From NCBI RefSeq assembly GCF_056712565.1, contig NZ_CM160072.1: 64,000 nt of DNA, one strand, 5' to 3'. Position numbers: made by a program. Shown piece by piece: positions 6,001 to 9,000 of this stretch; position 1 is the stretch's first letter; each line of letters starts with the position of its first letter.

Positions 6001-9000
6001 ATACCACCGCCGATGTCTCGCTGGATAGAGTGGATGCCGGTTTTGCGATTACTAAAATCGCACTGAAGAGCGAAGTTGCGGTGCCGGGTATTGATGCCTC
6101 CACCTTTGACGGCATTATCCAGAAAGCAAAAGCAGGATGCCCGGTTTCTCAGGTACTGAAAGCGGAAATTACGCTGGATTACCAGTTGAAATCGTAAAGC
6201 GTTGCCGGATGACGCGTCAGGCGCGTGAATGCCTGATGCGTCAGCACAATCACATCAGGCTGAGAAGGGATTGTTGTGACATGGCTATGCGTTGTCGTTG
6301 TCCAACTAAACGTAGCGGAAATCACAGTATTTAAGTGACAGTGTCACGTTAAATAAAAACCCGCGAGTGCGGGCGAGAGGAATTTATCAGATTTTCAGCG
6401 GTAACACGCTGCTCATCCAGCCTGGAATTTCTTCGGCGGGCAGGGGGCGGGAAAAGAAATATCCCTGAATAACGCGACAGTGGATCTTGCGTAGCATCTC
6501 AAATTGCTCTTTGGTTTCGATGCCTTCCGCCACGACGGTTAAATTGAGGCTTTGCCCAATGCTGGTAATGGCTTCGAGTAAGGCAAGGATGCGTTTTTCG
6601 GTCAGACAACGATCGACAAAACTTTTATCAATTTTGATTTCCGTTACCGGAAGACTGACTAAGCGGGATAATCCGGAAAAGCCTGTACCAAAATCATCTA
6701 CCGATAAACCGATGCCCATATCGCGCAGGATCTGAATGCGCTTAAAGATTTCGGTATCGTGTTCCATCATCATGCTTTCCGTGATTTCCACCGTCAGCTG
6801 GTGGCCGTCAATACCCCAGGCGTGCATTGCATCAGATACCTGATTAGGCAGCTGATTACTGCGAAAGTGCAGCGCAGACAAGTTAACGGATAACGCCGGG
6901 ATATGAATATTCTGGCTACGCCATTCTGCTAACTGACGGCAAGCTTCCGCGATGACCCAGCGCCCAATATTTTCGATTTCACCAATCTCTTCTGCGAGAG
7001 GAATAAACCGTGAAGGGGGCACATGACCATGCAGAGGATCGTACCAGCGAGCAAGGGCTTCGATGCCGTACAGTTCACCCGTTTCTGCGAAGATTTGCGG
7101 CTGATAAACCAGTTTAAGTTGGTTATTGCTAATCGCTTCTTTTAGCGCTGCGCCTAAAACCAAACGCTCTTTTACCATTTCGTTCATCGCCGGGCTGAAG
7201 AACTGCCAGCCGTTACCGCCATTTTTGCGAATAAAATCCATTGCATTGTGAGCAGTGGAGAGCAGGTAATCGCGGTTTTTACCCTCGTCGTAGCTGATGC
7301 CAATGCTCAAGGTGAGCGGGAATGGTTTATCGTCAATCATTATCGGCTTGCTGACCACATTCCGTAGCTCATCGGCGATCTGGGTAATGTTACTGACATC
7401 GTTTTCCAGGCTCACGAGGACAAAAGACGCACCTTCAATACGACAGAGATACTGATCCGGTTTGAGTTTTTCACGAAAGCGATTGACCACTTCCAGCAAT
7501 GCCTGATCGGCCCACGCATAGCCAAGGCTATCAATCACATCCTGAATATGGTCAACACCGATGAGATACACCACCGGAGAGACGGCTTTGTCGACCAGGT
7601 CATCGAGGTAATTGTGCAGGTTATTGCGATTTGGCAGACCGGTCATCGGATCAAATTGGATGAGTTGTTCAATATGCTGACGGCTTTTTTCCTGTTCCAG
7701 CGCCAGCGCGGCCATATGCTGGCTGATATCTGCCACGCGTTCGATAAAGGCGCTGGTTTCTGCTCCTGACGAGGTTTTAATTTGCAGGATCCCCGCAGGC
7801 GCGCCATCGCGCTGACGAATGGTCGCTGACCAGCTTTGCGCATTTTGAACTTCTGCACCGTGCGAAGATGACGCCCAGTGTATCGGCATCCCGTTGCGCA
7901 GCGCGAACAGCGAAACATGCGATTCGTTGAGAACAGATTCGATGTTACGACAAATGATTTCCCCCATTTCATGAAATGGTGGGCTGCTGCACATGGCGGC
8001 GAGAATATTGCCTTCAAGCTGGCGGATTTGCCTTTCTTCGGTGATATCCGAGAATGTCATTACCAGGTTCTGCAGATGCGCGAGCACGTCATAAACCGGG
8101 CTGATAGAGGCTTTAATCCAGATTTTTTCACCGGTGCGCGTCAACAGCAGAAATTCGTCCTGATCGCGGGCGGTTTTCCATAGCAACTGCTGTAAACGAA
8201 TACGGTTATCAGCAGGGAATTCTGGAATGTTCAGGAGTGTATCGGGCTGCATACCGCTGGCTTCGTTAATGCAGTAACCAAACATTTCGGTAAATGCGCG
8301 ATTGCACTGCACAATATGGCGTTCCGGATCGAGGACAATCACCGGTCGGTCGAGATGGTCAACGGCAATAATCAATTGTCGGGTCTGTTCTTTTTGCGCC
8401 ATTTCTACGCTGGCATCCCGTACCAGCGCCAGGTAATAAACTTTCCCCTCGGCGCTCACTTTCGATAGCGCAAAACGGGTCCAGACTTTACTGCCGTCTT
8501 TTTTCTCCAGCTGCAGCTCTCGACTCATCCCCTCGACGCGCGCTTTACCACCTTCACGGTTGTGACGAATGTATTCAGGATGCGCAGGACGCAAATCCCG
8601 CGGAATCAGCATATCAATGTTATTGCCAATGACTTCTTCACGTTTGTACCCCCAGAGCTTCTCTGCGGCGGGGTTGAAAAACATCACTTCATCATTTTCG
8701 TTAATTAACACCGCGCCCATCATATTTTGCTCAAGGGCGGGGAAAAAAATGCCATCGGCGGCAGTATCCGCATCGGTTAGCTTCATGATTACCTCTGCAT
8801 CCTGGCGCATCTAAAGACTGGCTTTACAGAGTTCAACACGGTTTCTACCTCGTCTTTTGGCGATATACAGAGCTTCATCGGCTATTTGAATGAGGCGCTC
8901 ATAGTCAGGATGACCATTAAACATGGCGGCACCGATGGAAAGTGAGAGGGCAATATCCTCGCCGTTTGCGGCTTTAAAATAATGTCGACCTTTATGGTTA

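What the first reader, a model, noticed from the sequence alone, without database searches (positions are those of the whole stretch)
6198..6386. ddpXABCDF absent at the osmC-dosP junction
osmC and dosP are separated by only 190 bp containing a REP-like palindrome and the dosP terminator. In K-12, as I recall, the six-gene D-Ala-D-Ala dipeptidase/transport operon lies here.
Basis: partly seen in the sequence, partly recalled or inferred. Interest (0 to 1): 0.35.

Follow-up and report, generated by a model that had tools for sequence, protein, structure and literature searches.

The report
Lineage-specific loss of ddp operon
This E. coli strain, like about one in five sequenced E. coli, has lost the six-gene ddp operon (D-Ala-D-Ala dipeptidase and transporter) that K-12 carries between osmC and dosP; a 62-base scrap of ddpF remains, and this is ordinary strain-to-strain gene-content variation.

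Summary
osmC (5766-6197, +) and dosP (6387-8786, -) converge on a 189-bp spacer. In K-12 MG1655 the same two genes are 6,277 bp apart, with ddpF-D-C-B-A-X (b1483-b1488) between them. The ddp-less junction occurs in 1,116 of 5,426 complete E. coli genomes, including type strain ATCC 11775 (99.98% identical to the window over 11 kb) and ST131. 4,294 genomes carry ddp. No ddp DNA lies elsewhere in the window, and genome counts argue against a relocated copy.

The spacer has three parts:
- a REP-like hairpin retained from the K-12 osmC-ddpF spacer;
- a 62-nt frameshifted relic of the inside of ddpF (79-82% identical, same orientation). Its only homologue in any E. coli genome is ddpF;
- the retained dosP intrinsic terminator.

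So absence is a deletion (441 bp plus 5,651 bp either side of the relic), not an ancestral state. It removed the whole ddp operon and about 180 bp of the DNA between ddpX and dosP. Two other Escherichia lineages also carry ddp next to dosP. The neighbouring dosC is gutted in the same two-deletion pattern.

This is an accessory-genome polymorphism already visible in public annotations, so interest is low. One small loose end: the relic is more diverged than the flanks would predict.

The parts
5766..6197 (+). osmC (peroxiredoxin OsmC), intact, 143 aa
   Evidence: NCBIfam TIGR03562 E 9e-60; 98.6% identical to K-12 OsmC
6198..6241 (.). Left retained flank. It equals the first 44 bp of the K-12 osmC-ddpF spacer (43/44 identical). 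It contains a REP-like hairpin with arms 6210-6222/6231-6243 and REP-head-like motifs at 6204-6216 and 6231-6243.
   Evidence: homology to MG1655 ends at 6241
6243..6303 (-). Relic of the inside of ddpF (codons ~146-166: ABC signature GGQRQRIAIARAL...SQPDVIVL). 79-82% identical to ddpF alleles, with a 1-nt deletion, in the same orientation as ddpF in K-12.
   Evidence: In 28 Gb of E. coli genomes at E<=10 it hits only ddpF or the identical junction, at a median of one place per genome (maximum 2)
6308..6386 (-). Right retained flank. It equals the 78-79 bp immediately downstream of the dosP stop in K-12 (96% identical). It contains the dosP intrinsic terminator (stem 6374-6359, T-run 6358-6349) and a conserved palindrome TTTAAGTGACA-G-TGTCACGTTAA (6330-6352).
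   Evidence: homology; terminator, z = -4.1
6387..8786 (-). dosP (oxygen-sensing c-di-GMP phosphodiesterase), intact, 799 aa
   Evidence: NF008467 1637 bits; 98.6% identical to K-12 DosP over 799 aa
8814..9021 (-). dosC remnant: codons ~406-460 plus a 47-bp internal relic (codons ~214-229). The rest was removed by two deletions (530 bp and 686 bp relative to MG1655).
   Evidence: same state in L012 and L013

Best explanation
The 189-bp osmC-dosP spacer is the scar of a lineage-specific deletion of the ddpXABCDF operon. That operon encodes a VanX-type D-Ala-D-Ala dipeptidase plus a dipeptide ABC importer. An ancestor had the K-12-like order osmC - REP - ddpF-D-C-B-A-X - dosP. Relative to MG1655, two stretches are missing. 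The first is 441 bp, from 44 bp after the osmC stop to about ddpF codon 167. The second is 5,651 bp, from about ddpF codon 146 through ddpD, C, B, A, X and about 180 bp of the ddpX-dosP intergenic DNA, ending 78 bp after the dosP stop. A 62-nt frameshifted ddpF fragment is left between them. Both neighbours keep their 3' structures: the REP-like hairpin after osmC and the intrinsic terminator of dosP. The likely consequence is simply loss of D-Ala-D-Ala uptake and hydrolysis, with osmC and dosP unaffected. The allele is inherited by descent in a tight clade, about 21% of complete E. coli genomes. From my knowledge of the strain names (ATCC 11775, ST131, UPEC/APEC strains) this clade is phylogroup B2. 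What is shown: the absence, the breakpoints, the relic, the population frequency and ddp at the same place in other Escherichia. What is inferred: the number and order of deletion events, the phylogroup label and the phenotypic consequence.
For: MG1655 and a K-12-like strain carry ddpFDCBAX between osmC and dosP. Window-versus-MG1655 alignment gives collinear flanks at 97.0% and 97.6%, with only a 62-nt, 79% match to the inside of ddpF between them. That 62-69-nt piece, searched at E<=10 against 5,426 genomes, hits the junction (1,115 genomes at >=95%) or ddpF (about 4,285 genomes at 79-82%), at a median of one place per genome (maximum 2), and no ABC paralogue appeared among the 60 rows sampled across the ranking. 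It keeps the DdpF-specific SQPDVIVL codons and has a frameshift. The junction is contiguous in 1,116 genomes. ddp is present in 4,294 and ddpX in 4,282 even at blastn sensitivity. The most divergent junction-bearing genomes examined are 99.3-99.4% identical to the window over 11 kb, against about 97% for ddp+ genomes. Escherichia sp. E1V33 and 'E. coli' SCPM-O-B-8794 (DosP about 94% identical) also have ddpXABCDF directly after dosP, so ddp at this site predates E. coli diversification. Other ddp-less Escherichia (E. whittamii, strain E69, E. albertii) have unrelated junction sequences without the REP or relic.
Against: The relic is more diverged from every ddpF allele (13 substitutions plus 1 indel in 63 nt, 20.6%) than the 8.2% divergence at fourfold sites of adjacent dosP predicts (P about 0.002). 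A simple recent deletion followed by neutral decay does not fully fit. ddp presence is patchy among Escherichia lineages (2 with, 3 without among those recovered), so gain/loss history at genus level is not resolved. The phylogroup assignment was not computed. I found no paper in the held library stating the ddp/B2 pattern.
Confidence: 0.93

Rival explanations
1. Absence is the ancestral state, and ddpXABCDF was inserted between osmC and dosP in the lineage leading to K-12 and most other E. coli.
For: Several Escherichia lineages and Citrobacter amalonaticus lack ddp between dosP and osmC.
Against: The window's junction contains a frameshifted internal fragment of ddpF in the correct orientation and position. 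An empty site cannot contain that. The ddp-less outgroups have unrelated junctions. Two outgroup lineages have ddp at the same site.
Confidence: 0.03
2. The operon is not lost but relocated, or functionally replaced, elsewhere in this strain's genome.
Against: Nothing ddp-like lies in the window beyond a 24-25% identical ABC ATPase paralogue. The ddpF segment has a median of one place per genome, maximum 2. ddpX DNA is found in only 4,282 of 5,426 genomes even at about 65-70% identity sensitivity. That count is complementary to the 1,116 junction genomes.
Confidence: 0.03
3. The junction is an assembly or sequencing artefact, a collapsed region.
For: None.
Against: The same junction is present in 1,116 independently assembled complete genomes.
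Confidence: 0.01

Closest known systems
E. coli K-12 MG1655 osmC-ddpFDCBAX-dosP locus (b1482-b1489)
   Same: Flanking genes, their orientation, the REP-like hairpin after osmC and the dosP terminator are collinear and 96-98% identical.
   Different: 6,092 bp are missing in the window: all of ddpX, A, B, C and D, most of ddpF, and about 180 bp of the DNA between ddpX and dosP. Only 62 nt of ddpF remain.
E. coli ATCC 11775 (type strain) and 1,115 other complete genomes with the same junction
   Same: Identical 189-bp spacer in ATCC 11775, which is 99.98% identical over 11 kb. RefSeq annotates osmC directly followed by dosP, and a dosC fragment.
   Different: Nothing of substance. The window is a member of this group.
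dosC (dgcO/yddV) loss in natural E. coli isolates
   Same: The adjacent gene shows the same pattern of two deletions around a short relic in the same genomes. The literature notes that DosC is 'frequently absent' (PMC5635171, citing Povolotsky & Hengge 2016).
   Different: It is a different gene, and its relic is 95.7% identical to K-12, much less diverged than the ddpF relic at 79%.
Other Escherichia osmC-dosP architectures (E. sp. E1V33, SCPM-O-B-8794, E. whittamii, E69, E. albertii) and C. amalonaticus
   Same: The same flanking genes (gadC-digH-dosC-dosP ... osmC) with a variable interval.
   Different: Some have ddp plus a LysR/3-oxoacid-CoA-transferase/thiolase cluster. Others have an omptin pseudogene, a 145-bp unrelated spacer, or a dosP/osmC truncation. 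None has the REP plus ddpF-relic scar.

Membership tests
ddpXABCDF operon (D-Ala-D-Ala dipeptidase + D,D-dipeptide ABC importer) | ddpX (M15/VanX-type dipeptidase) gene present | tested here: not met
   No tblastn or blastn hit in the 64-kb window. ddpX DNA is absent from about 1,144 of 5,426 genomes.
ddpXABCDF operon (D-Ala-D-Ala dipeptidase + D,D-dipeptide ABC importer) | ddpA/B/C/D/F transporter genes present between osmC and dosP | tested here: not met
   Only a 62-nt frameshifted ddpF fragment at 6243-6303.
Deletion scar (derived gene loss) as opposed to empty ancestral site | Remnant of the lost DNA at the junction, in syntenic position and orientation | tested here: met
   ddpF relic, E 4e-11 to 2e-9 locally. 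Its only homologue in E. coli genomes is ddpF.
Deletion scar (derived gene loss) as opposed to empty ancestral site | Outgroups carry the genes at the same site | tested here: inconclusive
   2 Escherichia lineages do and 3 do not. Citrobacter has other genes there.
REP (repetitive extragenic palindromic) element | Extragenic imperfect palindrome with the GCC(G/T)GATGCG(G/A)CG head, a member of a dispersed family | tested here: inconclusive
   Two head-like motifs with 2 mismatches each and a 13-bp inverted repeat. A canonical REP sits at 1073-1102 in the same window. Genome-wide copy number of this variant was not measured. 'REP-like' is a fair label.
Rho-independent (intrinsic) terminator of dosP | GC-rich stem-loop followed by a T-run immediately after the stop codon, on the gene's strand | tested here: met
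   Stem 6374-6359 with 5 GC pairs plus TTTTTATTT. Fold z = -4.1. Function was not tested experimentally.

The most novel reading that the evidence does not exclude
The ddp-less haplotype could be much older than the clade that now carries it. One version is an ancient presence/absence polymorphism, or an import from a divergent Escherichia, whose flanks have since been homogenised by recombination up to the edges of the indel. The basis is that the ddpF relic is 20.6% diverged from all known ddpF alleles, against 8.2% at neutral-proxy sites next door. The osmC-dosP interval would then be a long-lived deletion/replacement hotspot, with at least six architectures in the genus. Alternatively, part of the excess reflects a single multi-nucleotide (template-switch-like) event, since five substitutions cluster in 13 nt.
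Probability: 0.2. Interest if true: 0.3.

Novelty: already known. Interest (0 to 1): 0.1.

Why it matters
It matters little. The finding documents that the source strain belongs to the roughly 21% of E. coli that lack DdpX and the Ddp transporter. Such strains presumably cannot import and cleave D-Ala-D-Ala, a peptidoglycan-derived dipeptide, as a starvation nutrient. In the same lineage DosP has been orphaned from its partner cyclase DosC. The junction is useful as a lineage marker and as a clean example of how operons erode in steps, leaving short relics. It opens no new question.

Tried and rejected
- **Rfam scan** of 5400-9500 at E<=1 gave no RNA family in the spacer.
- **Promoter scan** of 6100-6500 found no sigma-70-like site.
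- **Literature searches** for ddpX or ddpA with phylogroup, B2 or UPEC terms found no explicit statement of the pattern. One hit was a false friend, DDPA = DAHP synthase. One poorly designed search returned irrelevant ExPEC papers, and one call failed on a term that was too short.
- **Relic from another ABC ATPase gene** (dppF, oppF, ddpD): no such hit appeared in the relaxed search, whose rows were sampled across the whole ranking, and ddpD gave no hit locally.
- **Closer ddpF donor for the relic:** none found. Identities were K-12 79%, OkiPb01695 82%, E1V33 79% and SCPM 76%.
- **Quasi-palindrome template switching** as the source of the clustered substitutions: by hand count, arm complementarity rises only from 11/17 with K-12 bases to 13/17 in the window (for the window arms). 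That is not convincing.
- **Shared scar with E. whittamii or E69:** they do not share the B2-type scar.

Full report
**Observation.** The window carries an ORF at 5766-6197 (+) and a convergent ORF at 6387-8810 (-). NCBIfam identifies them as OsmC (TIGR03562, E 9e-60) and DosP (NF008467, 1637 bits against a cut-off of 857). The surrounding order is adhP, maeA, sra, bdm, osmC, dosP, dosC fragment, digH, gadC, gadB. The spacer 6198-6386 is 189 bp, so the coordinates and the 'only 190 bp' statement are right.

**Content of the spacer.**
- An inverted repeat with 13-nt arms lies at 6210-6222/6231-6243, 92% complementary. It folds into a 14-bp stem.
- It contains two motifs resembling the REP head GCCKGATGCGRCG, each with two mismatches. 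A canonical REP lies at 1073-1102 in the same window. 'REP-like' is a fair description.
- On the dosP strand, a GC-rich hairpin (6374-6359) followed by TTTTTATTT sits 12 nt after the stop codon. Its fold z-score is -4.1.

**Comparison with K-12.** MG1655 itself (NC_000913.3) has osmC (b1482), then ddpF, ddpD, ddpC, ddpB, ddpA, ddpX (b1483-b1488), then dosP (b1489). A K-12-like strain is identical across this region. The osmC-dosP interval there is 6,277 bp. Alignment of the window to MG1655 gives:

| Window | MG1655 locus (L011) | Identity | What it is |
|---|---|---|---|
| 3142-6241 | 1-3101 | 97.0% | left flank through osmC |
| 6243-6303 | 3543-3604 | 79%, one gap | inside ddpF |
| 6308-8975 | 9256-11923 | 97.6% | dosP terminator through dosP |

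Two stretches of MG1655 are therefore missing, of 441 bp and 5,651 bp. They remove ddpX, A, B, C and D, most of ddpF, and about 180 bp of the ddpX-dosP intergenic DNA. Reading that K-12 intergenic sequence, I see a TGGCAT-N6-CTGCAT motif and TGCAC repeats. These look like the sigma-54 promoter and NtrC sites. The identification rests on my reading, and on papers in the held library whose titles and abstracts concern RpoN/sigma-54 promoter mapping and which mention ddpX (PMC8743547, PMC4591121). I did not read either paper.

**The relic.** The 62 nt between the two flanks match ddpF codons ~146-166, the ABC signature GGQRQRIAIARAL through SQPDVIVL. They lie in the orientation ddpF has in K-12, and they carry a 1-nt deletion that breaks the frame. 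Local E-values are 4e-11 to 2e-9. I then searched 69 nt spanning the relic against all 5,426 complete E. coli genomes at E<=10. It hit 5,400 genomes, at a median of one place each (maximum two). In 1,115 genomes the hit was the identical junction. In the rest it was ddpF at 79-82%. No other ABC ATPase gene appeared among the 60 rows sampled across the ranking. An empty ancestral site cannot contain a piece of ddpF, so the ddp-less state is derived by deletion.

**Frequency and clade structure.**
- The contiguous junction is present in 1,116 of 5,426 genomes.
- The 6.15-kb ddp region is present in 4,294 genomes.
- ddpX is present in 4,282 genomes even at blastn sensitivity.
- These counts are complementary, which argues against a second ddp copy in junction genomes.
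- In the window itself only a 24-25% identical ABC ATPase paralogue is found.
- Junction genomes form a tight group at this locus. ATCC 11775 is 99.98% identical to the window over 11 kb, and the most divergent junction genomes I pulled are 99.3-99.4% identical. ddp+ genomes are about 97% identical.
- Named members include the type strain ATCC 11775, O25b:H4-ST131, and UPEC and APEC strains. From my own knowledge these are phylogroup B2. I did not compute phylogroups.

**Genus context.** One scan of species-representative genomes with DosP returned seven loci, annotated:
- Escherichia sp. E1V33 and 'E. coli' SCPM-O-B-8794 have dosP-ddpXABCDF, followed by a LysR / 3-oxoacid-CoA-transferase A and B / thiolase cluster.
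- Citrobacter amalonaticus has that same cluster (plus hydroxyacyl-CoA dehydrogenase, a permease and a dehydrogenase) abutting osmC, with a chemoreceptor gene instead of ddp.
- E. whittamii has an unrelated 145-bp spacer.
- Strain E69 has the same spacer type, interrupted by an omptin pseudogene.
- E. albertii has a dosC-dosP fusion and a truncated osmC.
- The seventh locus is a 519-bp contaminant contig (see below).

None of the ddp-less outgroups shares the REP-plus-relic scar. ddp at this site therefore predates E. coli diversification. The interval has been eroded repeatedly and independently. The gain/loss order at genus level is not resolved by these data.

**Loose end.** The relic differs from MG1655 ddpF at 13 of 63 aligned positions plus one indel. 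Five of the differences are states seen in other natural ddpF alleles, and the rest are unique. Fourfold-degenerate sites of the adjacent dosP differ at 24 of 291 (8.2%). That gives P about 0.002 for the relic's 20.6%. Five substitutions cluster within 13 nt, so one multi-nucleotide event may inflate the count. Alternatively the haplotype is older than its flanks, which recombination can homogenise only up to the indel edge. By contrast, the dosC relic next door is 95.7% identical. I could not decide between these readings.

**Mechanism and consequence (inferred).** The locus does nothing new. It is a scar. osmC keeps its 3' hairpin and dosP keeps its terminator, so both neighbours are probably unaffected. 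The strain should lack DdpX dipeptidase activity and Ddp-mediated D,D-dipeptide uptake. The biochemical roles are as annotated in RefSeq and as I recall from the DdpX/VanX literature. They were not tested here.

**Verdict.** Observation confirmed and interpretation supported. Novelty is 'already known', because the state is visible in more than a thousand public annotated genomes, including the species type strain. I found no paper in the held library that states it explicitly. Interest is low.

Noticed in passing
window 8814-9021 (-): dosC, the diguanylate cyclase partner of DosP, is gutted. Only codons ~406-460 and a 47-bp internal relic (codons ~214-229) remain after two deletions of 530 bp and 686 bp relative to MG1655. 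The second deletion also clips yddY and 45 bp upstream of dosC. The same state is seen in ATCC 11775 and in the two most divergent junction genomes checked, and in one of those dosP also has an internal stop. DosP is thus orphaned in this lineage. The literature already notes that DosC is frequently absent (PMC5635171).
   Followed up: partly
window 1222-1784 (-): A complete HigB-like (RelE/ParE family) toxin ORF (1506-1784) sits next to the HigA antitoxin yddM (1222-1506). K-12 has yddM alone, an orphan antitoxin. So K-12, not this strain, has lost a gene here.
   Followed up: partly
window 6243-6303: The ddpF relic is 20.6% diverged from MG1655 ddpF, against 8.2% at fourfold sites of adjacent dosP (P about 0.002). 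Five substitutions cluster in 13 nt. The cause is unexplained: an old haplotype, or a multi-nucleotide mutational event.
   Followed up: partly
window 6330-6352: A near-perfect palindrome TTTAAGTGACA-G-TGTCACGTTAA lies just beyond the dosP terminator. It is conserved in K-12, where it sits between the dosP terminator and the rest of the ddpX upstream region. It could be a protein-binding site or a second hairpin. Its function is unknown.
   Followed up: no
L004, L005, L006, L007, L008, L009 (osmC-dosP interval): The interval between dosP and osmC has at least six different contents across Escherichia and Citrobacter: ddp; ddp plus a LysR/CoA-transferase/thiolase cluster; a chemoreceptor plus that cluster; an omptin pseudogene; a bare 145-bp spacer; and a truncating fusion. 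It is a local hotspot of gene turnover.
   Followed up: partly
L009 (E. albertii NBRC 107761) ~8953-11388: dosC (residues 1-352) runs directly into dosP (residues 453-799), and osmC is truncated at codon 119 where it abuts the dosP end. bdm is also missing.
   Followed up: no
L010 (519-bp contig labelled Terrisporobacter petrolearius, coverage 0.76): It encodes a DosP fragment 95-97% identical to E. coli DosP. This is almost certainly E. coli contamination in that Firmicute assembly.
   Followed up: no
NZ_CP159531.1 (115-kb E. coli plasmid) 57772-58113: 342 bp at 99.7% identity to the 5' part of K-12 ddpX and the DNA just upstream of it lie on a plasmid, annotated as an M15 metallopeptidase. 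This is a chromosomal fragment captured on a plasmid (hit H70).
   Followed up: no
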